NCBI GenBank assembly: GCA_905178155.1
Contig: CAJINV010000008.1
Span: 1,736,001-1,800,000 of the forward strand
DNA: 64,000 nt
Source: Amoebophrya sp. A120
Taxonomy: Eukaryota; Protista; Dinoflagellata
Direction: 5' to 3'
Made by a program: the position numbers and the translations under genes. Positions 5,174 to 55,567 of the stretch are shown here, piece by piece (the first letter of the stretch is position 1; every line of letters begins with the position of its first letter). The notes under the pieces are model-generated. The model was not told the DNA's origin, searched no databases, and saw only the letters and a program-made list of their open reading frames with translations.

Positions 5174-8009
5174 TCACTTCTGCACCACTTCGGTACACTG
5201 GTGTGGCCATTTGTCCTCGTGTAGTTGTTTGCAGCGGGAGCAAATTCCGTAGAAGGGGTTGCCCATGGCGGCGCAGTTGCGGTAGGCGTGTTTCTTGATA
5301 CTGCAGTCCCGGATCCAACAATTCCGGCAGGCCGCATCATTTGGTCCAAAATAATGATCCCAAAAGAAGAACATGGCGGTTTGCGATCGGGAAGCCGCCC
5401 GCTTGACGGCATCCACATTGTCCTGCTTGCGGAAAGAGCGGGTCTTTTCAGCTCGTTTGATCAGCGGTGTGAAGATGGCATCGACGTCCTTGTATTCCTG
5501 AGTCTGCATGTACTTGTCGTATTCTTCCTGTGTAATCGTACCACCTTTGTTCTTTTTCAACGGGGTCTGCAACGGCGTCGTTGTGTTACCTCCGCCCGGG
5601 GTTTGCAATACGTCTGTTGTTCTTTTTCTCCTGTCCTGGTCTTTCGCGTCCCTCACCGACTGCTCCGCTCTCCGATTGGCCTCCTCCAAGGTGATGTACT
5701 TCCCTTTCGACAGTACCATCCCGGAACCGGCGCCGGTGACCTTGTCCAACATCTGGGATCTACTTTCGGCTACTTGTAGTTCTTTGTTGTACAATGATTT
5801 CCACAATGCCGCTTCGACACTTGAGGAAGCTGATTTCAACATCAGTTTGGGCTTCTGGTACAACTGGCGGAGGAGGGTGTAGACCCGGCTGCGCGCGGCC
5901 TCGTCTAACTTGTCAACGTTGATGTCTCTGGTGTTGTCCGCAAGTTTTTTCGCCGTCGTTATGCTCGCGGAGAGCCAGCCCCGGCGGGCGACTGCCTAAA
6001 TTCCCGCTATTTTTTGAACCGCCCAAGCCCTAGCCTGGGCGAGCAAGCCCGCCCCGGGCAATAGGCCGAGGCGGGCCGCCTCTGCTGGGGACACAGGCGG
6101 GGCGCGGGCGACTTGCAGAACGCAGACGCCTGAGCCCATCGCCGGCGACCCGCCTGAAAGGCGCAGTGACGAAGCAACTGCGCCGCCGGCCCTTTCAACC
6201 GTTCTTGACCACGTCCCGAAATTTTCTAAGTTTGCGCCTAAATTTCAGAGCAACGGCCGACATAGGCAAAATCGCACGCAAATAAAAAAACTGGGCAAAT
6301 TAGACAAAAAATAGACAGCAGCCGAAGCTGCCAAGGCCGCTTTTTGGACAGAAATTAGACAGGAAAATAAAAAGGAAAATAGACAGGAAAATAGACAGAA
6401 AAATAGACAGGAAAATAGACAGAAAAATAGACAGGAAAATAGACAAAAACTTAGACAGGAAATTAGACACGAACTTAGACAAAAACTTAAACAGGAAACA
6501 CACGCCCCCGCAAGAGCGCCGACTGTAGGAAAAATAGCGGGAAAATAAAAAGCCTGGCGCCGGGGGCGGCTCTCAGTGAGTTATGCTCCAGACTTGCTCT
6601 TTCACTTGGGAAGCTATAAATAATATTTCGTCTATTAATGCGATCGCTAGCGTCTTGGTGTCTTCTGATCCAAAAAGTCCTTGTTTCTGCAGGTAGAAGT
6701 TCCGCATGTCCTGGTAGACTTTGGTGAACGAGTCCAGCGAAATTTTACCACCGAATTGCTTCGCGACGTGGTCGTCTTTACTGTCCTTGATTCCTAAACT
6801 CACCCCGAATGGTAAGTGTCGCCTCGTTTTCGTGATGGCGTCTTTCGCCAAGCTTTTCAAGGCTTCGGAACTGCCAAACATGTCGTCCGCTGCGGCTACT
6901 GCTTCTCGACTCTTTCTCGCCTCTTTTGCGTATGACAGAACAACCGAGGACTCGCTTTCCTTAAGTTGCTTCTGAAACGCCGGCAAGAGCGGGTACTTGA
7001 TGGCCTGCTGCGCCAGCAAGAGCTGCTCAGCCGCACCCGCAGAACTTCGCGCTCGTGCACAGACGACGGCGAAATTGCAGGCCAAGGTGATATCTGAGTA
7101 TTGTTTTCCACAATAAACAAACCCACCATCGGGTCAGATTCATGTTTATGCAGTGTCAATTCATGTTCGTTAGCAAATGTTCTTACCTTGGATCGTTTCA
7201 TCGGTTAGTTGTCCGCTCAGTTCTCGGATCACCGGCTTCAGCTCGGCACCGCCCGCGAGTAAATCGACTTGTTCACAAAACTGGCAGCACTTGCTCGTGG
7301 CGCTCGGGAAGATGACTCTTGTCGCTGGGATTCTGGTTGTTGCGCAGCCGGCGCATGCCGCGGCTGCGTCGCATCTGTCGCAGATGATGGCTGGTCGTCT
7401 CTGCATTTCCGTTCGTTTGAACTTCCTCGTACACACGCAGCATCCTACTTTGTCGATTTCCTCCTTGTACTTTTGCTTCGTCTCCTCCATCTGTTCTCCC
7501 AGCGTGGTCTTGTCCGTACCAATGGCGTGCAGTTGTGCTAGCAATTCTTCCTTCTTGTCTTCCGCAAGTTTCTTTGCTCGCTCGAGAAGGATTTCTTGTG
7601 ACTTTTTTGCTTTCAGCTCGGACTCCATCTTCTCGATGCCCTTACGCTGGCCGTCGGCCATCTGCACCATGCGCAAAAGGAGCTCTTTGTCGACTAGGTC
7701 TTTCCGTGCTTGGATCCTTTTCTTGTGCAGAATCTTCTGGTAGTCCGTGAACGCTGCTTCGTCTGCTGCTGTAACCACAAGGGCGATGCCTTGTTCAATA
7801 CACTCGGTTTCTAGTTCCTGCGTCAATTTTTTCTGGTCGTAAACGTCGACTTGCGTGATCATGGTGAAGTCTGCGCTCGTCGGTTCGAGCACCGTATGCA
7901 TCAGGGAGTCGATGCTGGCTTGTGCTTGCTGCTTGGCTGTCAGCGGTAGTTGCGGTGCGGCTCCTGCGCCCGCAGCCGCGCCAGCGCCTTCTGTTCCGCT
8001 GTCTCCCAT
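5174..8009 (-). CDS. Gag-like protein (~706 aa), three pieces: 8009-7187, 7093-6587, 5964-5174
   Basis: Removing the GT-AG intron 7094-7186 gives ...ETIQ/DITLACN. Removing 622 nt between the GTTATGC(TC) direct repeats gives ...QVWSI/TTAKKLADN. Both joins are in frame. N-terminal coiled coil plus an 8-Cys finger; C-terminal CRNC..H..C and CSRC..H..C knuckle-like motifs. Confidence 0.8.
5965..6579. mobile_element. GC-rich TIR element (MITE/introner-like) inserted in gag, with a 7-9 bp target duplication
   Basis: Direct repeat GTTATGCTC at 5958-5966 and 6580-6588. Imperfect ~50-bp TIR: TCGCGGAGAGCCAGCCCCGGCG...TTCCCGCTATTTTT versus the reverse complement of the right end, TCACTGAGAGCCGCCCCCGGCG...TTCCCGCTATTTTT. 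Confidence 0.85.
6349..6498 (+). repeat. 12-bp tandem repeat (consensus AGGAAAATAGAC), about 12 copies, inside the TIR element
   Basis: Directly visible; produces the spurious (FLSI)n ORF 6300-6503. Confidence 0.95.
7094..7186 (-). other. Canonical GT-AG spliceosomal intron (93 nt) inside the retrotransposon gag gene
   Basis: Minus strand CAAG|GTAAGAAC...AATACTCAG|ATATC. Contains in-frame stops; removal fuses ORFs 7170-8009 and 6573-7085. Confidence 0.85.
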
Positions 8010-9016: not shown

Positions 9017-12000
9017 TCACTTCTCCATGTTTAACTGGGTTGCGCGCAGTGGACTGTGCATCCGATCAACACCATCTCTTTCCTGCTCCTTCACGCTGCC
9101 ATGTCTCGACGGCGACGGGGTCGTTTCATTCTTATAGCTGCCTCTTTCTCCTGCTAAACTTACGTCTCGCCCGTCCTCCTGCTCGTTTGGATCCTCTGTC
9201 GCCGACGAATCCGCCGCACCAGCATCAAAATCTTCGTTTTTCTTGTCTCTCCCCACTTGGTCTGGCGAGCCGCCGGTCGCAGTCAGGAAACTCAGGCGCT
9301 CGTTGCCAGCGGCGCTCGGCCGCGTAGCGTCCTGGACGTCGTTGCCATGCTGGTTCCCTTCTCGCTTTCGCATCACAACTGGTGAAGAGGTCGCACTTGA
9401 AGAAGGAGCATGATTACCTCTGTTCTCGGTTTGGAGACCTTTATTTTTCCCGTCGTTTGCTGCTGGCTGGTGCAAACGCTGCTGCTGATGTCGCTGCGCC
9501 AACGCTTGCTGCTGCCCTTGTTGCTGCTGGTGGCTCGCAGCAGACGTGGCCGCTGCACTGTTTGAAGTAATCTGCTCGACGATGGTTGCCCGCGCGCCGG
9601 TCCGGTTCGGCATTGGCGACAGCACCTCTTGCAATATGGCCTTGCCGTCCTTCTTTTCCAGCATCTGCCGCATGCGAGCTACATCCGTCGCCGGCTGCTG
9701 CTGCTGCTGCTGCGGCACAGCAAGTAGGTGCTGGTGCGGCACCTGCAAAAACTGATCGCGCTGGGGGTGGTTTGCGATTGTGTGGCCGCTTTGCGCTTTA
9801 TTGTTGTTGATCCCGATTCTCGGTGGGCTTGCATACCGAGCCGGCTGGCGCACAGGAGCGCGCTGCTCTTGATAAGCATTACTGGCTGCTCCCGGTGCTG
9901 CAGCTCCGAAAAGCTGCATCTGCTCGCACTGTAACCGCAAATCGTGCGGTACTCCCGCCATCTGCGGGGGTGAAAGTCGTCCGTTGGCTGCGCTGCCAGC
10001 GCCGAGCGGACCGCCAAGACCTTCGTTTTCCACAGCCGTGGCACCAGCGGAGGCATAATTCCCGACGTGTTGCAGCAGCGCATTGGAGGGATAAGCAGAT
10101 GGATTATTCGTGTGTGAAATACTGTCACCGGCACTCATGACCCCAATGCCCGCCGCACTGTTGAGACCAAAACTCACCCCTCCGCCCGAAAGATGTTGAT
10201 GTGGTGCAGCCAAACCGAAGGCACTTGTTGCGCCCATGGGCGGCGAGGCTGAGGCGCTACTGCTGTTGCTGCTGCTTGAGATACCACCAGCTCCTCCTAC
10301 AGTTGTTCCGCCAGCAGGGAGCGCGGCCGTGGTGTTGCTACTTTTGTCGACGACGACGTTGTTAAAGACGAACAGGAGTTCGTAGCACAGCAGCGGGATC
10401 ACGACCAGCACCGGGCCCAGGACGACTCCTTTCACACCGAAGTGCGAAATCCCGAGAACAACTCCCAACCCGGTTAGCCAGGGGTTGGACTCTGGAATCT
10501 CCATGTAAATGGCCACCGTCACGTTCCACCACGTGGTGAAGCGGATGCATTGCAAAAGTAGTGCTCTCGTACGAATATCGGAATCCATAACCGTACAGTT
10601 TCGGAACTTCTTTCGTTTCTGTCGACAGTAACCCTCAGCATGGGGTTAGCTGCCTGTTTTTGAAATGCAAAGCGATGGATAAATAAGCCATTTCATCTTT
10701 TGCGTATCGTCACGACCACGAGAGCTGTACTACTGTTGCACAGGATAAGATTGATCAGGAAGCAAATCGACGCCCAATAGAACGCATACGACGTGGCATC
10801 AGAAGGAGCAGATGTTGCGCTACTAGCTCTCGACAGGATGCTGGCCTGATGCTGGTGGAGCGGGCTTGTACTGTCGGCTGCTGTTGACATGTCCGAGCGA
10901 AACGAGAACATGGAGAAGGGAGGTGTTAGTATAGAGGTTGAAGTGGTTTCGGCGAAACTATTATCTGCAGCGCCGCTCGACGCCGATGCTGCAGCCGCGT
11001 GCAGGTTCCTCGCAGCCAGCAGCTGTTGCTGCTCCATGTTGCTGTAGTTCCAGTACACGTAGGAATTTGCAAGGGGGCGGAAAAATCGGCAAATAGCATC
11101 ATTTTTGTGAGCGCGCATTTTGAGGGGGCAAAAAAATTATGGCTGTTGGGGGTGTCACTACTGCTTTTTTTCCTGTTGGCCATTTAGATGCTGGCGCCAC
11201 TCTTCGTTGCCACGGTCCGCCATCCGGCCCCCCCCCGTTTTCAAATAAAACCGCAGCATTTTGTTGCAGTTGCACAGGCCTGCGGCCCTCTGACGCGGGA
11301 AGCCGCGCCCCCTCTCCCGCATCCAGTTCCGGACGCGCCCAGATATCTTCTCATCTTCCCTCTCCGGCCGGATATTCAGAAGGCGGACGCGCCAGCAGTC
11401 AAGTGCTTCCGGGGGGGGGTGCCGAAGGGGGGGGTAAGGGGGTGCGCTTGGGCTACCTCTGGGCTACCATTTTGGATGGGGCACGCAAAATCGGCAGTTT
11501 CCAATGGGGATTAGGGGGTCGGCATAGGCTACCGAAAGGGTACCCGGAAGGGGTACCCGGAAGGGGTATCCGGGAGGGGCAAAAATGCACCCCCTTGACC
11601 ACCCCCCCCTGGCCGGGCCTCCTTTTCTGAGCGAAGGGCCTCGTCGAGCCCCGGTCAAGGAGGCGGCCCGGCCACTGTTCGAAGAGCGGGCGCACGACAA
11701 AGCGTCCGGCCATCTGAACGACAGGGCACAGAACGAAGGCGCTGTGGCCTGTTTCTGGTCCGGGTGTTGCGGCATTTCCAAAGCTCAGCCATCATGTTTC
11801 CTGTGGAAAAGATGAAGTGACACGCGAGGCGTGTCGGCTTCCAAGATGTTGCGCCCCCAACAAAAAAAAAGTTTTTATCCCCCCAAAAAGTGCGCTGGCA
11901 AAAATGATGCTATTTGCCGATTTTTCCGCCCTAACTGCTCCATGTTGCTGTAGTTCCAGTATACGTAGAAATTTGCAAGAAATGCAACGTAAATCGGGTC

Positions 12001-15000
12001 CACGACGGGGATCAGCGCCATGATGCCGGCAATAATGGTCGGAATGAACACAAGCGGCAACTCGAAAAAAGAGCAAATGAACCAGGTGTAGAGGGTGTAG
12101 AAGACGCACATTTTCACCGCCGAGTACAGAATGGCGTTCAGTACGCGCTCCACGCAGCTGTAGCACATCCGGGAGCTGTCGATCACGGCCAGAAACTCGT
12201 CGAAGTAGTGCATCACCGACACCCGATATCCAAGGAAAAAAGTGTGTAAGTGTAACTTTATTGCAGGAACAGCATCACAGATTTGTTTTGCATGACAGAG
12301 AAAACCTGTCATGCGTAGCTAGTACGCGAAAACACGTATGAAAATAGCCTCTGATGCACATCCAGCATGACAGGTGTAACTGTATTGCAACGTCTGCAAC
12401 ACAAAGTTACACTTACACAGTTTTTTTCTCGCATACCCGACTCTTGAGCATGTAGAAGAGGGCGCAAATGAAGACGATCCCCTGGAAAATCACCTCCAGA
12501 AAGGTCGCCAGCCAGTGCTGCTATGCATTGCAAAACTATCGTACTAGTATAAATTGCAGTACAAATTTTATCAGAAAGAAAAATGAAATTTGTAATGCTA
12601 ATTCAGGTAGTTTGTCATGCAAGATTGCAACTAGTACGAGTACGATACTTTTGCACAGGATAGCTGCAGCAACAGCACCACGAACTGCAGAAAGCGGCTG
12701 ATGGGCGACTGGCCCTGTTGGCCTTCCTGGCCCGGCGCCCCCTGCTGGAAAAGACTCTTGAAACTAGTCAGCCTGTTGCTCTGGTACGCGGAATACACCT
12801 CGTTGAAGGCCTCACTGGACAGTCGTTTCGCCTGCGTGAAGTTCCCGCGGAAAAGCTCAAAAAGCAGCGCTCGTGCCTGCTTCAGCTCGCGCAGCGAAAA
12901 GCTGTGCGGTGGGGGAGCCTGGTGCCTCTGGTGCTCCGAAGTGGTGTTTTGCTTACTACTCGTTGGTGGCGGAGGACTGCTCCTGTTGCCAGGATTTTTC
13001 CCGATTTCATGTTCGTCCTCGGAGAGGCCGGGCATTTCATCACTCGCAAGTGTCATCTTCCGGCGCTGTTGCCTTTCGTCGCTCGATGTTTCTGGTACGT
13101 TGTCTTCTTCATCTACAGCTACACTTGGTCTTTTTACTATGCTTCCTGCTACTGTCGACTCTGTCGTTTTGGTCGTGCTGATAAACGGTGACCGTGTACT
13201 GGACTCGAGAAACCAACTCGACCACGACCGATCGGGCTCGTCTTGGTCGTTCTTGGTTCCTTCGGCTTCGTCCGCCTCAATGTTCTGATCTCCTGATGGT
13301 TGTATGTCCATCTTTTTCTTATTTCGATCCGCGGTTGATTCTTTACTTGTACTTCCGCTTGCGTTTAAGATTTCCTCTAGCCGCCGGTCGAGGTCTTCTG
13401 TTCGTTCGTTGTTTCTCTCCCCAACATATTCCTCGGCGTTGTCGGTGCTGCTGCTATGTGCTGCATTTTGCTCATCCGCGAGAAGCAAACTGTGAATAGG
13501 AACAGTTCTGACCGACGCGTCGGAGAAGAAGTAGCCGCTCAACTGTGGTGGTGGCAGAATCTTGAATTTCTGTTCCTTGACCACGGCAGAGGCATCCTTC
13601 ACTTCGGACGACGGCTCCGATGAGTTTATTTTCACGTCGCCCGTTGTACTCGCCGCACCGTCCGCAGCACTGGTCCTCGTCGCATTTTTTTCTGTAGTAT
13701 CTTCATTCTTGTATTCACGACGGCTGTCGGGACCAATGATCGATGGCCCACTTTCTCCTGACGGGTGATCTCTTGTGCTGTCATCTTCAGTTCTATGCAT
13801 GCGTGCCGTTTTAGAAGCTGTCTCGCTGCTTCGTTCCAAGTGGTGCCCAGCTGCGATCTCGACCTCATTTTCCTCAGGACCTTGCTTTTTCTGAACACTG
13901 TCACCGGCCGATGCAGGGCTATCTGCTGAGGACGACCGTGGTGTGCTCTTGCTCTTCTTCAGCGTTTTTGCGGCCGCGTCGGGGACCTTTTCATCTTCGC
14001 CAACAGTTTCATCATGGTCTCGCACTTGTTCCTGCTCTTCTGCAACGGAAGTCGCGCTCCTGATCTCGGTCGATGAGGATGGGTGTGCTGTCTCACCTCC
14101 GATTTTTTTGCTCTTTTTGGAGGACGGAGAGGATCCCTTTCCAGTTGTGTTCTTCACCGTTACTTTCTGATGTTTTTCTTCTTTCTTCAGGAGCTCCGCT
14201 TTTGCAGTTGCATCGACACTTGTCCTGTTTGACAGTGCCATGCTGTTTTTCCTAAGCTGGTCATCATCATCTCCGTCGTCTCGGAGTGAAATACTGAATC
14301 GATCTGCTACCTTTTTCTCATCCGCCGGTGGTCTCTTCCGGTGCAGCCGTACTTCCGGTGCAGCCGTGCTGTCCGTTTCCTCGCTTCGTGCAGCCGCTCC
14401 ATCACCGCCGTCTTCATTAGCTGCGACATGATCGGACGAGTGGAGACCACTCTTGTGGTCGTCCTCAATATTCTTCGTCGCTCTCGCCTGTTCAAAATCC
14501 TGACCACTGTCATGCGACGAAGTCAAAGGCAATGATCCTGACATAATTTCGGCAGTTGTTACAGTTATTTTCCCGCTGTTCTCAGACGACCTGCTTGTCG
14601 TGCCCTTCGTCAAACTACCCTTCTGGTGATGCCCTTGCTGCGAAGACGCCGGGAAACCAGCCGGCTGGTGCTGCTCTGTACCGACGGTACTGTAGGCGTC
14701 GTACACCAACTTAATGAACTCGTATTCAACCATGTTCCGCTCCAGCCACCCAGAAAAATACTCGTTGTAGTACTGCGTCAAATTCGCATTTGCTTGCTGC
14801 GCCAGCCCACCTGTTGTACTAGGTCCGGCGCGTGTTGTAGTGGTCGGCACTCCTAAAAGCGTCCTCGTGCTGTTCTTTTTATCGCCGAACTGCTCGGTGT
14901 AAAAAGTATTGCTGTCGGCGCCTTTGCCTACAGTCTGTGCTGCTTCGTGCCTGGATAGTGTACTCGCAGCGGCGTCAGAGGCAGAAAAAGAGCTCGGAGA

Positions 15001-18000
15001 GGACGTTGCTCTTCCCGCTGCTTCGTTCGTCGCTGTCGTCCCCGTGCCACCCTTACTTGTCGCAGTGGTCGTGCCAAGACCTACGCCTCCGAGGGTAGTA
15101 GAAGATGTTGTTGCGAAGTGTGACGAAGATGCTCCTTTCATCACATTGAACGCGGAAGAACCGTCGGCCGAGACCCCCGTCTGGTGCTTCTTACCAACGA
15201 CATGCATTGCCTGCGAGAGTCCGGCGAGCACCGGCAAAACGCGCTGCTGGAACAGCTCATTGCTCTCCGCGAACTCCTGTGTGGCTTGCCAAATGAAAGC
15301 AATCTCGCGACTGAGCTCCGCGGCACACAACACCATCAGCACTGCGCACAAGAAAGCAGAGGACACAATAATGAAGATGGCAAGCAGGGTGTGGATCTGG
15401 TCCGTCAACACGGTTGCCAGAACCTGGATATAAATCTCCCGAAGGAAATCAACCACGCATTCCAGGCAGGAGGAGCAGCTCGTGGAAGTCAGTTCTTCAT
15501 CTTGACCTCCATGATCGTCGACAGCCAACATGATAGGCTTTGTTCGCTCGTCCAGAAAATCTGCTTTATTTCGCACTTCACCATCTTCTTGGACATCAAA
15601 TCTTTTGTTTGTTGTAGCGCTAGCCGTGCCAGCAGCTGCATATTCGTGTTCGCTTCTCTTTTGCTGATCCTGCTCGTGTTCTGAGGCGGTTGTGGAGGAT
15701 TTCTCAGCCTCGCCACTTCTAGACACCGTCGTGGTAAGTAGGCCCGCACGATTAGCCCCAGCGGAATATTGCGGAAGATTTTCGGTCAAAACTGCGCGGG
15801 TAGAAGTTGATCCAGCGATCATTGTTCCTGTTGTAAGAACATCGACGTCCGCACCATCCTCGTGGTCCCGAATCAGTATCGCCGCTGGCAACGACGCTGT
15901 ACTATTTTGTCCTCTTTCATCTCTCGGATCCTCTTCTTCATCCTCCACAAGTAAATGGTCTCGGGTGCGTGCATCAGGAGTTGACGACGCGGACGATTTC
16001 TCCTGCTCGTCATTCTCATATTGTTCTTGGCCGCAGCTTCGTATAATTTCCGAGTGCTGCTGTACATGAGAATGAGATAAATTTTGATTTTCCTGCATCG
16101 CTGCAAATTTGGTCCGCATGAAGGTCTGGTGTGCCGCGTCCTCATCACCCCATGCTGGCAGGCGGAGCTCGGACGAAGCCCTACTTGGGTCCAGAGCAGT
16201 CGGCATCAACCCCATATCCTGCAGCTCCACAGAAGACACCGAGTGAGACTCGTCGTGGCCAAGCTGCGCTCTAGTTTCTGCTTTTCTGGAACTGGAAGTG
16301 GTCGCTCTCATAGCTCGGTCGATGCTGTGGCCTTGAAGGTCTTTCTGCACCGACGCCGACGACGAGCGCGGCTGCATCATGGTGGTCCTGCGATCGGCAT
16401 CTGGCGAAGATATGAGCGGGGGCACGGTGCTGGTACTATCTCCAGGTCGTCGTGGGGTCGCGGAATGAGCGGATGATCGCTTCATAATTTGTTGGCCCGG
16501 TCCTACTCCCCCAAGAGTGTTTGCGCCACCCCGTCCGCGTTGAAAGAGCGACTGGAAAAATGTCCGGCTGCGAGAGCTGGAGGGGCGCTGGAAGGAGGTG
16601 GATGAAGATATGGCTCCTAGTTGCTGGTGCTGCAGTCCACGATCATGATCTCCCCGGCCGGACAAACGTGCCGACGCCGAAGATGTCCGCGGCGACGACA
16701 TCCTACCACTTGCTCGTGCCAGGTACTTGGTACCATTTCCAGCTAGCCTTCCGCTGCTTGACGAGATCATGCCAGAAGTTGAGGAAACTTTGCCGTAGCC
16801 GCTGCCCGGTGCTACCTGATCCCGACGTTGCGTCAACCAATTGAGGAGCCCGTCTACTAGGCGAATGAGAATCAGGAGGGAGTAGGCGACGAGGCAGGAA
16901 AAATAGAGGAAACTCGCGGTGGCGCCGAGCGGGTCAAACAAGTCCGGGTCGGCCTTGTAGAGCAGGAAAACCGCGCGCGCAAGTACCGCCCGGTACAGGA
17001 GCGCGAACCAGGGCCAGGAGAAATCGGCCGAGTTGGTGGACGAGGAGGAGACAAAGTTCACGAGTGGCTGGGCCACCAGCCAATACAGCACCCGCGCGAG
17101 CAAGTCAATCAAAATCGGCAGGTCCCGGAAAAAAAAGGACGCGAAAGACTCATACCGACTCCACCACCGCTTCTCCTGGATGCCGAACAGATGCGAAAAA
17201 AACCACGATCGTTTCGTCTGCTCCAGTCTGGTGCTTCGATTGTTGTACAGCGAGGACCCTCGCCTGACGAGAGGACCTCCGGATGGACGACCAGGATGAT
17301 GCAATTCTGAAGCACCTTCCTGACCCGGGGATCTGGACAGAATCGACGAGGAACCGAGAGTTTTTACTCCTGCCGCCGTCTGGTCTACTCCTCGCCTTGA
17401 AGTAGTTGCACTAATAGGTGCACCAAGATCCATTGTGGTGAAGATTTCCGCAGGGGCTGGACCCTGAGTAGAAGATCGGAGAGAACCTCCCGCTCCTGCA
17501 ACTCCCGTGTGCTGGTGTAGGTGCTGTTGTATTGGTGACAGTACTCCTTGGTGTTGCTGCTGTGCAGCTACCAGTCTGCGCCGCAACGTCGCTGACGTGG
17601 AAGACGAGCTGCCTCCAGGTGGAGAAGACATGGAAGTGGTCCTGACAGGCGGAGCATCCGCACCCGAGGAGGACCGCAGCGGAGGTTGCAGCTGCGACTC
17701 TTGGTTATCAGGATCAACGATCCGAGACCGAGTTGTGCGGCGACCCTCATGTTCTTGCAGCCTGTCGATGTAGTGCTCCATGATCTCCTCTTGTTGCTCT
17801 TCTTGAAAAAAAGCCAAGCTGGAACTCTCGTTTTCCTCTAGCACCAGGGATCGCAGCCGATTATTGTCTTCGTCTTCCTTGAATGGAGTGAAAAAATGTT
17901 CGCTGTGTCTGGCAGTAAAAGTGTGTGAGTATGTACTGATGCGCGGCAGTTTCTGCCACACACAAGAAAGTCGTCCTTGCTTGCGCATGCCGCTTGTACA

Positions 18001-18821
18001 GGCAAGAGCAACACCGCGTGGCGGATGGAAATGACAAAATATATCAGCCTTTCAATAAACTTCTTCTATCAGCAAGCGGATCGGCCGCAATTATGGAGTC
18101 CTACTTTCACCGACGATGCAAAGAACTTTCAGCGCTGCAAAAGTTACTTGTCGCGATCAGTATCCTATCGCACTTTTCCAGAACAAACTCTGACATGATT
18201 TATACTTTCGTTTGATAGCTCGTCGTCCGAGAGGAAAAACGCCAAAACCCAGACAAAGAGCTGTTTCTTTACCTCAAACATGGGGATGGAAGCCACGGTC
18301 GCCCAGAAGAGCGCCAAAAAGTAACTCTCCAGCACGAAGTAGTTCAGGTAAAAGATCCCAACGCATCCGGGAAAAAACACCAATCCCCATCCATTTTTTG
18401 CATGGAAAATAGTGGATTTTATGCATGTTTTGCATGACAAATTGGATGAGGATGGGTGTTTTTCCCTCGATACAACGACAAACAATCCGATCAGGTGCAC
18501 CACCAGATGGATGAAGGCAGAGTGCACCGTGGTGCGCCGGTCAATCGCCATTTGCTGTTGCGCATTCGGGGCGGGTGTGCCTGGTTGCAAAAAAGGCGGC
18601 GCGCCACCTGAGGCTGCTCCAATCGTAGAACCACCAGGCGTTGCAACTGCTCCGGGCATCATGGTAGGTGCGGGAGAGAATCCGCCGCCTGTCCCTGTCG
18701 TAGTTCCTGGGACAACTTGCGGCCCAAAGTTCTGATGATTCTGATAAACCTGCTGACCCGGTGCCGGCATTCGAACACGACTCTGGGCCGGACCAGAAAC
18801 AAAAGCACCACTGCTGCTCAT
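9017..18821 (-). CDS. TMEM245 / AI-2E-family-like multi-pass membrane protein with large low-complexity insertions (~2,600 aa, 7 exons)
   Basis: Motifs LFWATVASIPMFEVKKQL, KMCVFYTLYTWFICSFFELPLVFIPTIIAGIMALIPVV and MEIPESNPWLTGLGVVLGISHFGVKGVVLGPVLV. Introns of 114, ~320, 146, 214, 906 and ~200 nt each preserve or restore the frame when removed. Confidence 0.8.
10544..10747 (-). mobile_element. Introner (family B, TGCAAAAGTA-type TIR), eroded ends
   Basis: Inverted repeat ATGCATTGCAAAAGTAGTGCTCTCGT / ACGAGAGCTGTACTACTGTTGCACAGGAT. Removal of 200 or 209 nt joins the flanking frames (..LIRFTTWWN). Confidence 0.75.
11074..11934. mobile_element. GC-rich TIR element (~60-bp TIRs) acting as an intron, flanked by a 45-bp direct repeat
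   Basis: GGGCGGAAAAATCGGCAAATAGCATCATTTTTG at the left end and its reverse complement at the right end. Direct repeats 11029-11073 and 11935-11979 (43/45 identical), offset 906 nt. Confidence 0.9.
12227..12435 (-). mobile_element. Introner, TAT...ATA termini, 5-bp DR CCCGA
   Basis: Inverted repeat AAAAAAGTGTGTAAGTGTAACTTT / AAAGTTACACTTACACAGTTTTTT. 214-nt removal gives FYMLKS/RVSVMHY. Confidence 0.9.
12522..12662 (-). mobile_element. Introner (family B), TAT...ATA termini, 5-bp DR GCTGC
   Basis: Inverted repeat TATGCATTGCAAAACTATCGTACT / AGTACGATACTTTTGCACAGGATA. 146-nt removal gives VLLLQ/HWLATFL. Confidence 0.9.
17903..18219 (-). other. Degenerate non-canonical intron (~320 nt), boundaries uncertain
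   Basis: Decayed inverted repeat (AAAAGTG...TACTGAT / ATCAGTA...CACTTTT). 320-nt removal at TCG joins FLSDDE/HFFTPF in frame. Confidence 0.55.
18364..18472 (-). mobile_element. Introner, 5-bp DR CAACG; stop-free, in-frame 114-nt intron
   Basis: Inverted repeat GGGAAAAAACACCAATCCCCATCCA / TGGATGAGGATGGGTGTTTTTCCC. Removal restores the hydrophobic helix HLIGLFVV/GIFYLNY. Confidence 0.85.
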
Positions 18822-37600: not shown

Positions 37601-40600
37601 TAGTAACGCTGGAACAGCACGTCGCGACCGCCGTAGCAGGGAGTTGAAGATGTCGCTGCAACTCCTCCTTGATGATCCCTGAGAGCAGTCCTTGTTCCGG
37701 GCGGAGAAGGTGGAGAAGACGAAGCAGCGAAAATCGTGGCAGAAAAGTCGAGTCCGCGACCGATGCGGAAGCGCTCTAACTGGAATAGAGCGCAGTCGTG
37801 CGCTGCAAGAAGCTGTGCGCGCGATGGTGGAGGTGGAGTACTGGAAAATGCAGCTGCATTCTCCTGAACGCGATTATTGATGTCCTTGTCTGCCGCACTT
37901 CGTCGTACGGCACCAGTGAAAGATGAAAAATCATTGCTTTTGTCCAGAAAAGCCACGTCCAGGGAGAAGCAGTGCTGCCAGAAATTCCGCACTTCAGCAA
38001 GCGTTTTCAACGCCTGCAGACAGTGGCTTCGCTCGGCCGCGGGCTGTCTTTGCACTTCAAGCTCCAAAAAATCCAAACAGCTCGACACAAGCGCCATTGG
38101 AAGGGACGAGGAACTTTTCAAAACTTGCTCTGGTGCACCGCCAACAATTTTATTGCTACTCCTATCTGCAAGATCAGCGGGAGACGAACTGTTAAACCAG
38201 TGCAAGCACATGGATATTGGCTGTGCAAAAGATGTGTTGACTCCGCCAGCATTCTCGCCCGCCTCTGCTTGTTCGTCGAGATGCACTCCGTCGAGCAGCA
38301 GGTACCTCCGCAACAAGCGTAGGCAGGTCCGAGACCTGGTTCTGGACTTGCCATCTTCGGTAGCAACTTCTCCTTCTTCTCCGGCTAGGAACGATTCTAG
38401 CACCAGGACTGCGTCCTGGCCGACGCTGCGCCACCACCGGACCGCACTGAGCTTCCTCAGATCTTTCACCCTTTCGATTTCGATGCTGATCCGACTAGGC
38501 TTCAGAATTCGTGCCGCAATCACTTCCTTCACCTGCTGCACCTGCTCCTCGACGGCTGAGTGCAAGTGCGCGCGCGTCTGCGAATCATGGTCCTCTGGTG
38601 CTCCACCTAGCGGATGTTGTCCCTGTACAACGGTAGTTGTACTGGCCCCTCGGTCCCCGACGACCGCGCCGGCGCCCAGAACCGCCTCCTGTGCATTCCC
38701 CACACGCGCCAGGTAGCTCTGTCGCAGCAGGTAATCAAAAACGGACTTCCGAACCTCCTCGCTTGTGTGGGTCGCACTCATCGTTTGGTCCACCTGCTGG
38801 CGTGCGGCGGTCACGACTGGGTTGCTCAGCAGCGGGAGAGTGGCCTCGTCTCCTTCGCTACCTGCCATGTTCCTGCTGACCGGGTTGTCCCTCGGGCCAG
38901 CAGCGGTACTATGTGCTGCTGAGCCCCCCGTCGCAAAGGACGAAAAAGCGAGCAGGTGCACGGACTGCATCAGCTTCCGGCGTCGGAGCGCAATCTCCTC
39001 TGGCGGATCCATCAAGAGAATGGACCGCTTCAGCTCCAGAGCGCGCACGTGAAACAGCAGGCGACGCACCAGCCGCCTCGTGTCCTCCACATTCCGAAGC
39101 ATAGCTACCCGCTCCACGTTCCGCTGTGCCTTTTCAGTTCGGATTTTCATGCGCTTTAAAACATTTTTTGCACGGTTCGCCTTCGTCACGCGCTCCTCAT
39201 GCGGCGAAACGGGACTTGAGTCTCGGGTCGCGTAATCGTTGAGGTTGCCTGCCTTCGCGATCTGCGATTTGCGCAAGGGCGAAGTGAAGTCAAACTCTTC
39301 GTTCCGTAAGAAGCGTCCGTGCTCGTCTTTTTTTTGTTGACCGGGAGATGTCAAACCATTGTCGTAGTACTCATCGTCGTCCTTGTCAGAAGTCGAGAGG
39401 ATTTCATCTTCGTCTACGTGATCACTGTCACCAACGATTTCATCTTCCGCTGCGTCTGCCAAAGAGGAGCTTTCGTATAGCAGCCGGTCGATTTCCGCAA
39501 GGAACTTCTGTGCAACCAGTTCGTCTTCCAACAAGGGGGGCGCCTTGCCGTGGTGCCGTCGGTACTCCTGGCGCACCAACTGTTCACGCGTTTTTGTCCT
39601 GTTGCCTGTTGTCTTCGTCAACGACGGTGAGGATGCGCGTCGCTATCAAATGTAAAAGTGTCTGGGTCTGGAAGAATGCGCGATTTGTCATGCAGCTTTT
39701 CAATGACCCATGAGGTCTGGAATGCAGGACCTAGCATAACAGATTCTGTGCGATCTTTCTCATGCCTATCCTGCATGAGAACTGCCTCCCGACTTGGTCA
39801 AAACTGGGCGACTTTTGGTAATCATGCAACACAGATTTTTGCATGCTGCAGATTTAGCATGACAAGTTGCATTCTTCCAGACCCAGACATTTTTACATTT
39901 GATAGTCGCGTGCTGCTAACAACTCCGGACACCCGCACCGGACCGCGGGAAGATGTTGTTTTATCATGGCTTTCCGCATCAAGCACGACACGTGGAGCGC
40001 GTTCCTCGTCCAAAGCTGACGCATTCAGGTTGTCGCGGTTGTCACCTGCTCCGCGCAACGGATCCTCGATACCAAAAGTGTCGATCTCGTCGCCGGCGTT
40101 GACCTCGCTGTGCACTCGCACAATTTCATACGTCTGCAGCACCATGTCGACGAACTTCTCGTACAGCAATAACACTTTCTTCGGCTGCTGTTTTTGCTTT
40201 TGGTTCCCGTTTCTTCCAGTTTGGCTCTTTTGCCTACTTCCACCTGGTTCATCAGCGGGGCTGCGGGGATTTAGTCCCTCGTCCGTCAAGCCTTGCGAAT
40301 TAAAATGCTCGCTGAACTTCTCCAAATTTGCCCGCAAGCTGGAAATGAGCGACTGGACCTCAAGGCGCGCGTCGCCAGAGTCGGCAACTGACGATGAGGC
40401 AGAATCCGCTACCCCACGGTCTGCGCTCCCCGGGGAGGAAGATGAGCCAGAGACGCAATAATTCCAGGCCTCGTACAGGTCAAGGACCACGATGATCAAT
40501 TTTCGGTAAAGCGCCCGGTATCGGTTCGGGTCTGTCTGATAGTGTTCGCGTTTCGAGTGTGCTGACCAGATAGTATTCTGCAAGTTTCTCTTCGTCGTCG

Positions 40601-53394: not shown

Positions 53395-55567
53395 TCACAC
53401 GTCTACGTGAGCCAGGTTTACGCATCTCGGATTTCGGCACTTCATCGGTAATGGGTCGCGCCCCAATTTTGCCAACTTCTGGAAGCTCTCATCGGCCGCA
53501 AACACAAACGCGAGGATTCGGTTTGCGTACATCTTCGTTTCCTTGTCGGTTTTCTGTACGCCCAGGCACGGCTGCCGCTGCGGAACAGGATAGTCTACTC
53601 TGGTATTGTTCCTATCGTTGCCAGCAGAAGTGGGAACTTGCTTGATGCCATTCTTCTCTACTCTACCTTTTCCGCTAACAACTGCAGTCGCAGACGCGCC
53701 ATGCTTTTCGCTGTCCAGGTACTCACCACACCACTCCACACATTTGTCCGAACCTCCCAGAATAGGATCTTCGAAGCGGGGCACGGACTTCTGTTGTACA
53801 TGTACAAGAGATGGATAAATTTGGACGCGAAAGAGATACAGATAGAGATTCAATTTGCATTATATATAATTGAATTCTCTTATACTTTCTCAATCTTGAC
53901 GATGCATGACCGGCGCAACGCTCGAGCTTGAAGCGCTTTATCTATAAGTACCCATCAATATCCACTTAGTAGATCGACGATGAAGATGACACTAGTATAA
54001 ACCAATTGTCTACAGAAACAGCCATTTCAAGAATACCGCGATTGCTGCCAGGAGCGAGTAAACGGAGCTCTCCGGCTGGAACGCGTCCCAGGTGCGGGAG
54101 TGCACGTGGCGAATCCATATCACGTTGACAAGTTCCAGGATCTCTTCCTCAGAGCGCACTTCGATGGCTGCTGTAGTCGCTGAGCTGGAGGAAGCAGCGG
54201 CCGAGTTATGAACTGTAAAAATGTCTGGGTCTGGAAGAATGCGCGATTTGTCATGCAGCTTTTTCGTGACCCATGAGGCCTGGAATGCAGGACCTAGCAT
54301 GACAGATTCTGTGCGATCTTTCTCATGCCTATCCTGCATGAGAAACTGCCTCCCGACTTGGTCAAAACTGGACGACTTTTGGTAATTATGCAACACAGAT
54401 TTTCGCATGCTTCAGATTTAGCATGACAAGCTGCATTCTTCCAGACCCAGACATTTTTACATTTGATACGAATGGCTGGCCGAGGACGACGAGCTGCTCT
54501 CTTGCTCTATCAACTGTAAAAATGTCTGGGTCTGGAAGATTCTGACACTTGTCATGCACGTTTTGCATGAGCCATGATGTCCGTGATGCATACCCTAGCA
54601 ATACAGATTCTTTGAGGGCTTCTTGATGCCTATTCCGCATGACAAATGCCTTCTCAGCGTAGCAAAAATTGCATTCCCTTTGCTACTCATGCAATACAGA
54701 TTTTTTTGGAATCCAAATGCAGCATCACAAGTTGCATTCTTCCAGACCCTGACCCAGACACTTTTGCATTTGATATGCTCTCTTGTGGGACCACGACCGT
54801 GATATGAATTGCACAAGCATCGTACTCGTAAAAATGCATCACAAATTTCCTCAGCATGAGAAATAAAATTTGTAATGCAGATTTGCCTTGGGAACAAGAT
54901 TTGTAATGCAAGACTTGCATTTAGACGAGTACGATACTTTTGCACAGGATACGTGATGCAGCTCGGCTATTTCAGCTGTCGTCGTGGTACTACCATTCGC
55001 TGGCTTGGCTTTAATATTATTTCGGTGTGGATCCCCCTTAGCTTTGGTTCGACGAAGATCCTGGTCCTCGTCGTGTAAGGGATGCTCGTGCTCCTCCTCA
55101 CCAACATCGTTTCTATCATAGCCATAGTCGTAGTCGCCCTCGCCCCAGTTGTCCTCGTCTGCATCGTCAAGCTTCCTCTCCTCATCGTAGTCACCTTCAT
55201 TCCCGTAGTAATTTTCGTCGTAGGTGGAGTTGTTCTGCCTCGTCGCCCCACGCGTGTGACTCGCTGTCAGTCGGATCTCCGTCCGCTTTTGCCTGTCGTG
55301 ATCCGTCGTCCTCCGGCCTGCATTCCCGCGCTGGTGGTCCCTTTGATTCGTTCTGTCAGCGCGACTCGTAGTTGTACCTCCGATGTCATCTTCGGGAGTT
55401 GTTGTACCTTGCTCGCGATTGCGCTTCTTATTCTTTGTTGCCACCGTGATGTTCACACTGGTCGCACTGCGCGATTTGTTCTTGGCTTTTCGGGTTTGGT
55501 CTGTCGTCCCGAAAAACTGGCCCAAGGGGCCCTCCGTACACAACGCACAACTCCACCAGGGACGCAT
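53395..55567 (-). CDS. Protein with a C-terminal His-Cys-box (homing-endonuclease Zn-loop)-like domain (~410 aa, 5 exons; start uncertain)
   Basis: Three introners (154, 273, 267 nt) plus GT-AG intron 53791-54036 give one frame. C-terminal KCVEWCG...YANRILAFVFA...KCRNPRCVNLAHV. Confidence 0.7.
54207..54468 (-). mobile_element. Introner family A, copy 2; DR CGAGT/CGAAT
   Basis: Near-identical over its full length to 39644-39904. Confidence 0.95.
54508..54775 (-). mobile_element. Introner family A, copy 3 (more diverged); DR TGCTC
   Basis: Same TIR and collinear internal sequence as copies 1 and 2. Confidence 0.92.
54803..54951 (-). mobile_element. Introner family B; DR CGTGA
   Basis: Right end ACGAGTACGATACTTTTGCACAGGATA is identical to that of 12522-12662. 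154-nt removal gives AELHH/GRGPT. Confidence 0.92.

What the first reader, a model, noticed from the sequence alone, without database searches (positions are those of the whole stretch)
11029..11979. TIR element flanked by a 45-bp duplication of coding exon
Seen: ~60-bp TIRs immediately inside a 45-bp direct repeat (2 mismatches; ANFYVYWNYSNMEQ versus ANSYVYWNYSNMEQ), in the conserved part of the membrane-protein gene. Established: DDE transposase TSDs are typically about 2-12 bp. Inference: an unusual integration mechanism, such as widely staggered nicks or repair-associated insertion. The junction can slide across 45 nt. An alternative canonical in-frame solution also exists: GTTAGG donor at 11935 to TACAG acceptor at 11042 (894 nt), where the duplication itself supplies the splice sites.
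Basis: partly seen in the sequence, partly recalled or inferred. Interest (0 to 1): 0.8.

Follow-up and report, generated by a model that had tools for sequence, protein, structure and literature searches.

The report
Damaged transposon intron adds eleven codons
In a marine parasite (likely Amoebophrya), a small mobile element with one damaged end sits between two 45-base copies of coding sequence, likely left by a repair-finished insertion, and RNA-type assemblies skip it at unusual cut sites, not at an available normal GT-AG pair, which would repeat eleven amino acids in the protein.

Summary
The 45-bp repeat (43/45) and the inverted repeats are real; both junctions stand unchanged in a DNA-like run. 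The 861-bp insert belongs to a multi-copy, non-coding TIR family in a genome full of Amoebophrya-type introners; 8 neighbours have 5-bp duplications. Other copies' ends carry a terminal TTA that this copy lacks at the end beside the duplicate, so the long repeat is most likely an accident finished by host repair, not the family's footprint (other copies' duplications could not be measured). Three RNA-type runs (2 samples, 1 study) give one junction, 11061/11935 (873 nt). 33 duplicated bases stay, adding 11 residues to a variable loop. The 5' cut keeps the register of ordinary introners; the 3' cut is not at a fixed distance from the hairpin but behind the nearest look-alike of an introner end, a hint that sequence, not geometry, sets it. 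The scan noted 35-60-bp duplications before on another piece of this genome (unchecked). Verdict: new variant of a published intron class; a useful natural mutant.

The parts
11935..11979 (-). Upstream (original) copy of the 45-bp repeat; fully exonic; end of the exon
   Evidence: RNA-type contigs carry it whole with 0 differences
11074..11934 (.). 861-bp non-coding TIR element, one member of a multi-copy family
   Evidence: arms; depth 210-523 over the interior against 24-26 in flanks in X3, many variant positions; longest open frame 168 aa, no Pfam hit; no Rfam hit
11854..11934 (-). Intact arm, beginning TTAGGG on the gene strand; holds the 5' cut
   Evidence: (8 listed contigs from other loci match out to 11934 or 11935)
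11074..11152 (+). Damaged arm: the terminal TTA of the family is replaced by one G
   Evidence: sequence; (2 other contigs at 11075 have a consensus ending in TTA, agreement 0.65)
11062..11934 (-). Intron as removed: 873 nt, non-canonical ends (equivalent register 11061-11933); element plus 12 nt of the duplicate
   Evidence: joint 11060->11934 in X1, X2 and X6; registers
11062..11073 (-). Part of the duplicate that became intron; carries the only amino-acid-changing difference and the introner-end look-alike
11029..11061 (-). Part of the duplicate kept in the transcript: 33 nt, 11 extra codons, in frame
11042..11935 (-). In-frame GT-AG pair (894 nt) that is present but not seen used
   Evidence: present; contigs run unbroken through 11041/11042; no such joint
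9017..18051 (-). Host gene (stop-to-stop span): membrane protein with a weak AI-2E transporter match; three further TIR introns at 10539-10747, 12221-12434, 12517-12662
   Evidence: PF01594 E 1.4e-4, below the curated cut-off; 78% identity to an Amoebophrya sp. A25 protein

Best explanation
A copy of a multi-copy, non-coding inverted-repeat element sits in an exon between two 45-base copies of that exon, likely because only one end was joined normally and host repair likely finished the other, and RNA-type assemblies skip it together with 12 of the duplicated bases, which would leave 11 extra codons in frame. Steps: (1) shown: multi-copy TIR family, one intact end (TTA) and one end without its last three bases, lying against the far edge of the duplicate. 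(2) inferred: the damaged end was joined 45 bp upstream of the intact end's site by end-joining or fill-in of a long overhang (a 2-nt CT overlap between element end and target would fit if the C run later grew by two); whether a transposase joined the intact end or a free element was captured at a staggered break is open. (3) shown: the 873-nt skip and the open frame. (4) inferred: the Amoebophrya non-canonical splicing machinery cuts at the TA of the intact arm as in ordinary introners and, the normal far end being lost, uses the nearest stretch of duplicated exon that resembles an introner end. (5) inferred: the allele survived because that cut is in frame and lengthens an already long, variable loop between two membrane helices.
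For: Junctions in DNA-like X3 and raised depth. 8 listed contigs from other loci match through 11934/11935 and 2 at 11075 give TTA. 8 of 8 TAT...ATA elements of the window have 5-bp repeats, 7 perfect, 1 with a mismatch (2 further candidates without that grammar dropped). None of the 50 A120 family rows read in Dataset S2 of PMC12130899 has a TSD above 9 bp. One joint in 3 of 3 RNA-type runs that cover the site, depth 57 against 11 for the intron in X1; unitig ends at 11061 and 11934 agree. All 4 joints of the gene share only the registers 'intron starts TA' or 'starts one base before TA'; the G at 11935 is excluded. In the second register all 4 have A at -7 and 3 have A at -5. A 7-nt profile of introner ends ranks the used site 1st or 2nd of 52 candidates. 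The amino-acid-changing difference lies in the spliced-out part, the silent one in the kept part (n=2). The loop is 17-21 residues in 14 of 17 placeable homologs, 39-63 in 3, and 103 here before the duplication. Uncoordinated joining of two ends is reported to give duplications of various lengths in retroviral integration (PMC2857682, passage); fill-in at staggered breaks gives small tandem duplications (PMC8355091, abstract).
Against: Flanks of other copies could not be paired, so the family's own duplication length is unknown; no whole genome was held. 10 loose-end rows were not shown. Loss of TTA could postdate insertion. RNA evidence is contigs only, kind guessed by the tool, 2 samples of 1 study; three raw RNA runs did not cover the gene. 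The profile test is post hoc, trained on 8 elements, and a 14-nt profile ranks the site only 9th of 52; a rival site at 11056 scores as well and is also in frame. No empty-site allele was found.
Confidence: 0.62

Rival explanations
1. Two ordinary insertions about 40 bp apart on different chromatids or alleles recombined within the element (or a hybrid-element insertion moved one end nearby), giving one hybrid element flanked by the interval between them.
For: Explains a long repeat without new chemistry, and two differences between the repeats as allelic; hybrid element insertion gives flanking rearrangements with P elements (PMC3744419, passage). The family has many similar copies.
Against: Predicts two intact ends; one end lacks TTA. 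Needs two hits within 40 bp from a family of modest size. This copy differs from the family majority at roughly 20 listed positions (about 2-3%), in line with 2 differences in 45 bp arising after one event.
Confidence: 0.15
2. The family is mobilised by an enzyme that nicks the target about 45 bp apart, so long duplications are its normal footprint.
For: Clean 45-bp repeat abutting both ends; the family's TTA-GG end differs from the TAT grammar of its neighbours, so its enzyme may differ; its duplication length is unmeasured; an unchecked scan note reports other 35-60-bp cases in this genome (e1-10627074).
Against: Damaged end; that note describes unrelated inserts, which points to the host; no read family row has a TSD above 9 bp; the two single-contig flanks shown (X2, X6) do not complement each other, though they may be from different copies.
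Confidence: 0.13
3. The repeat is a later small tandem duplication across the edge of an older ordinary insertion, which removed the element's last bases.
For: Same end state; small tandem duplications at breaks are common (PMC8355091, abstract).
Against: The copied 45 bp come from the far side of an 861-bp element, which needs a template switch over the hairpin or an empty allele as template.
Confidence: 0.08
4. Assembly artefact: a repeat was bridged with duplicated overlap.
For: No long read was laid; X3 may be the assembly's own data.
Against: Both junctions and both repeat variants stand in X3 with 0 differences, and RNA-type contigs contain both variants in one transcript.
Confidence: 0.02

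Closest known systems
Introner elements among the non-canonical introns of Amoebophrya A25/A120 (Farhat et al. 2021, PMC7789003; abstract, sections 10-12 and 16, passages, supplement legends)
   Same: Inverted repeats at the ends, hairpin fold (z -8.3), repeated in the genome, no transposase, removed without GT-AG.
   Different: Direct repeat 45 nt against 3-5 nt; one end damaged; removal is not clean (33 nt stay); intact end follows the TTA-purine-purine motif that the paper gives for A25, not the TAT motif of A120.
Aureococcus introners that add codons (Gozashti et al. 2022, PMC9860276, passages)
   Same: Splicing leaves part of the target duplication in the transcript and adds residues.
   Different: There 12 bp (4 residues), a family rule, with both splice sites carried by the element; here 33 nt, apparently one event, non-canonical ends.
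Uncoordinated retroviral integration (PMC2857682, passage) and alternative transposition / hybrid element insertion (PMC3744419, passage)
   Same: Duplications of odd length beside an element whose two ends were not joined together.
   Different: Other enzymes and hosts; the link to this locus is by analogy only.
Long target duplications of non-LTR retrotransposons: R9 (126 bp) and Dualen (PMC9977147, passage)
   Same: Eukaryotic insertions flanked by long copies of the target.
   Different: Those are LINEs with reverse transcriptase and endonuclease; this element has TIRs and no coding capacity.

Membership tests
Amoebophrya introner element (Farhat 2021) | Inverted repeats joining the two intron ends | tested here: met
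   33 nt perfect, 78 nt at 83%; long terminal stem; longer than the 8-20 nt of the paper
Amoebophrya introner element (Farhat 2021) | Direct repeat of 3-5 nt at the borders | tested here: not met
   45 nt at this copy; so it works like an introner but this copy is not filed as a regular member
Amoebophrya introner element (Farhat 2021) | Removed from RNA at non-GT-AG ends | tested here: met
   873-nt joint in X1, X2, X6; ends TT..CC or TA..CT
Amoebophrya introner element (Farhat 2021) | Repeated in the genome, no transposase | tested here: met
Amoebophrya introner element (Farhat 2021) | A120 end motif TAT + 7 nt + AAA | tested here: not met
   Intact end starts TTAGG, the motif given for A25; the A-run at the same distance is present
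MITE / non-autonomous TIR transposon | Short, fixed target duplication shared by the family's copies | not testable with these tools
   No genome held; loose ends cannot be paired; metagenome scan gave 2 chance hits
PIF/Harbinger MITE (TTA/TAA target, recalled) | TTA or TAA is the duplicated target, not part of the element | tested here: inconclusive
   At this locus the TTA is not in the target sequence; all listed ends read the same way outwards, which fits a terminal repeat rather than a direct repeat, but 10 rows were hidden
Mutator-like element (recalled: long TIRs, 8-11-bp TSD) | 8-11-bp duplication and homology to MuDR ends | not tested
   No repeat library available; one A120 family with GG/CC ends is so classed in Dataset S2 (627 bp), another length
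Long-TSD LINEs (R9, Dualen) | Reverse transcriptase/endonuclease ORF, no TIRs | tested here: not met

The most novel reading that the evidence does not exclude
Amoebophrya has a recurrent, host-driven insertion route that copies about 45 bp of target around mobile DNA, and its splicing machinery rescues such insertions by reading short sequence cues (a TA at the start, adenosines 5-7 bases before the end, perhaps a branch point at fixed distance) while passing over a perfect in-frame GT-AG pair. This locus separates hairpin geometry from sequence and would show that the 3' cut is not measured from the hairpin; such events would be a steady source of internal peptide repeats in a fast-evolving proteome.
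Probability: 0.3. Interest if true: 0.72.

Novelty: new variant of a known kind. Interest (0 to 1): 0.47.

Why it matters
How Amoebophrya removes tens of thousands of non-GT-AG introns without a detected U1 is an open question (PMC7789003). In ordinary introners the hairpin end, the end motif and the 5-bp repeat coincide, so their roles cannot be told apart. Here they are separated by an accident: the 5' cut stays at the TA, a GT one base away and an in-frame AG are passed over, and the 3' cut moves 7-9 bases beyond where a ruler from the hairpin would put it. Collecting such damaged copies genome-wide would test the rule directly. It also shows one way in which introner insertion lengthens proteins.

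Tried and rejected
Whole-genome census of the family: no genome held. Metagenome scan with the intact end: 2 hits, both without further similarity, chance. Raw RNA runs X10-X12: 0, 0 and 180 reads, the last on another introner only; no test. Environmental run X9 covers only 12082-12215. Rfam: nothing. Pfam on the element's 168-aa frame: nothing. TIR sequence in 12 of 14 supplementary files of PMC12130899: no hit, but these are mostly tables without sequences; family rows beyond the 50 read were not seen. Figures S19-S25 of PMC7789003 (repeat-length plots, limited to 3-8 nt by their legends) could not be seen, only legends. PMC1317513 not held; PMC11054761 gave nothing usable. Rejected: sliding single-copy junction and GT-AG junction as main forms; a strict hairpin ruler for the 3' cut (predicts 11069-11071, or 11065 with the extended helix; seen 11062; 11071 and 11065 would be in frame, so decay of frameshifted RNA does not explain their absence). 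Literature searches for long repeats around such introns showed no such report in listings or the passages read; most listed papers were not opened and subscription journals are not covered.

Full report
Observation. It is the only insert-flanking repeat of 20 nt or more among 5 hits in the 64 kb; the others are a tandem array and internal matches between two related neighbours; local shuffles gave nothing comparable in 20 trials. The arms pair perfectly for 33 nt and at 83% over 78 nt and close a long stem (z -8.3 against 20 shuffles). The element is 861 bp, has no frame over 168 aa, and no Pfam or Rfam match.

Context. The window holds 8 elements with TAT...ATA ends and 5-bp direct repeats (10 candidates, 2 dropped for lacking that grammar). 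This is the signature published for Amoebophrya A120 introner elements (PMC7789003, sections 10-12 and 16 and passages). The host exon's only hit in the first protein search is an Amoebophrya sp. A25 protein at 78% identity, so the window is likely A120 or a close strain. The gene matches the AI-2E transporter family weakly (below the cut-off). The ortholog is conserved up to the eighth duplicated codon; then homologs have a loop of 17-21 residues (14 of 17 placeable, of 30 examined; 39-63 in the other 3), while this gene has 103 before counting the duplicate.

DNA evidence. Run X3 behaves as DNA: it carries both junctions with 0 differences at depth 24-26, has no joint across the element, and gives depth 210-523 over the interior with many variant sites. 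The tool warns that such depth is no copy number; it shows a family, roughly of order ten. Eight listed contigs from other loci (6 in X3, 1 in X6, 1 in X2) match out to 11934 or 11935, and 2 at 11075 give a consensus ending in TTA; 10 rows were hidden. The family therefore seems to end in TTAGGG on both sides, and this copy lacks the TTA at 11074, at the outer edge of the duplicate. None of the 50 A120 family rows that I read in Dataset S2 of PMC12130899 lists a duplication above 9 bp; this family could not be matched to a row.

RNA evidence. X1, X2 and X6 (kind guessed as RNA; 2 samples, 1 study) all join 11060 to 11934, with one base of ambiguity, skipping 873 nt. X1 also skips the three other TIR elements of the gene, and its junction depth is 57 against 11 over the element. 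Contigs run unbroken from 10748 or 10760 to 11060/11061 and from 11934 on, each with its own repeat variant, so both copies are in the transcript. The frame stays open with the 11 residues YVYWNYSNMEQ present twice. Neither the single-copy join nor the 894-nt GT-AG product appears; contigs can lose rare forms, and the three raw-read runs did not cover the gene. The difference that changes an amino acid lies in the 12 spliced-out bases, the silent one in the kept part, as expected if this junction is old (n=2, weak).

What sets the cuts. The 4 joints of this gene share two possible registers only: the intron starts at TA, or one base before it. The idea of testing the second register came from earlier scan notes. 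For the three ordinary elements the 3' cut is 4-5 bases past the hairpin. Here a ruler would give 11069-11071 (11065 with the extended helix of the predicted fold); the cut is at 11062. In the second register all 4 introns have A at -7 and 3 have A at -5, and the used site is the first look-alike of an introner end after the arm: rank 1 of 52 (7-nt profile, both arms), 2 of 52 (one arm; 5-nt profile), tied (3 nt), 9 of 52 (14 nt). This is post hoc and rests on 8 training elements and one informative locus; selection for an in-frame product also filters what survives. It is a hint that the 3' cut follows adenosines, possibly a branch point (inference), and not hairpin geometry.

Origin. One exact end and one damaged end beside an over-long repeat fit an insertion whose second end was finished by host repair. 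Analogies: uncoordinated retroviral integration (PMC2857682, passage) and fill-in at staggered breaks (PMC8355091, abstract). Recombination between two nearby insertions or hybrid element insertion (PMC3744419, passage) predicts two intact ends. A family-wide 45-bp stagger is not excluded. An unchecked scan note (e1-10627074) describes unrelated inserts with 35-60-bp repeats elsewhere in this genome, which, if right, makes the process recurrent and host-driven; I could check only this window, which has one case.

Comparison and verdict. It works like an Amoebophrya introner but fails the 3-5-nt repeat criterion at this copy. Introners that add codons are known (Aureococcus, 4 residues; PMC9860276, passages); long duplications are known for some LINEs (PMC9977147, passage). 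My searches showed no report of 45-bp repeats around these introns, within the limits of the library and of what I opened; 10.1101/2020.10.14.339549 (parts 1-2 of 4) and PMC11282704 (passages) describe only short repeats. The finding is real, is a variant of a published class, and is worth most as a natural mutant for an unexplained splicing system.

Noticed in passing
window 10539-10747: Introner of the same family as 12522-12662 and 54803-54951 with a decayed far end and no recognisable 5-bp repeat, still skipped exactly (209 nt, one base of ambiguity) in X1; fixes the register to two options.
   Followed up: partly
window 54207-54951: Three TAT...ATA elements within 750 bp, separated by 39 and 27 bp; two are related to 39644-39904 (95% and 74%).
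   Followed up: no
window 6297-6490 and 5086: Degenerate 12-bp tandem array with an inverted look-alike about 1.4 kb upstream; no flanking repeat found; unexplained.
   Followed up: no
window 11207-11356 (run X3): One contig of the family lacks 148 nt of the interior: an internally deleted relative.
   Followed up: no
window 11662-11792 (runs X1, X2): A second family copy with 6 differences is present in the RNA-type runs at the same low depth as this one, so another copy may also be intronic.
   Followed up: no
window 10760-11028: About 85 low-complexity residues inserted between two membrane helices relative to homologs, independent of the duplication; the modelled frame (2530 aa stop to stop) is far longer than the 825-aa A25 entry.
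   Followed up: partly
window 12082-12215 (run X9): A marine metatranscriptome contig matches the host exon with 1 difference but does not reach the insertion site.
   Followed up: no
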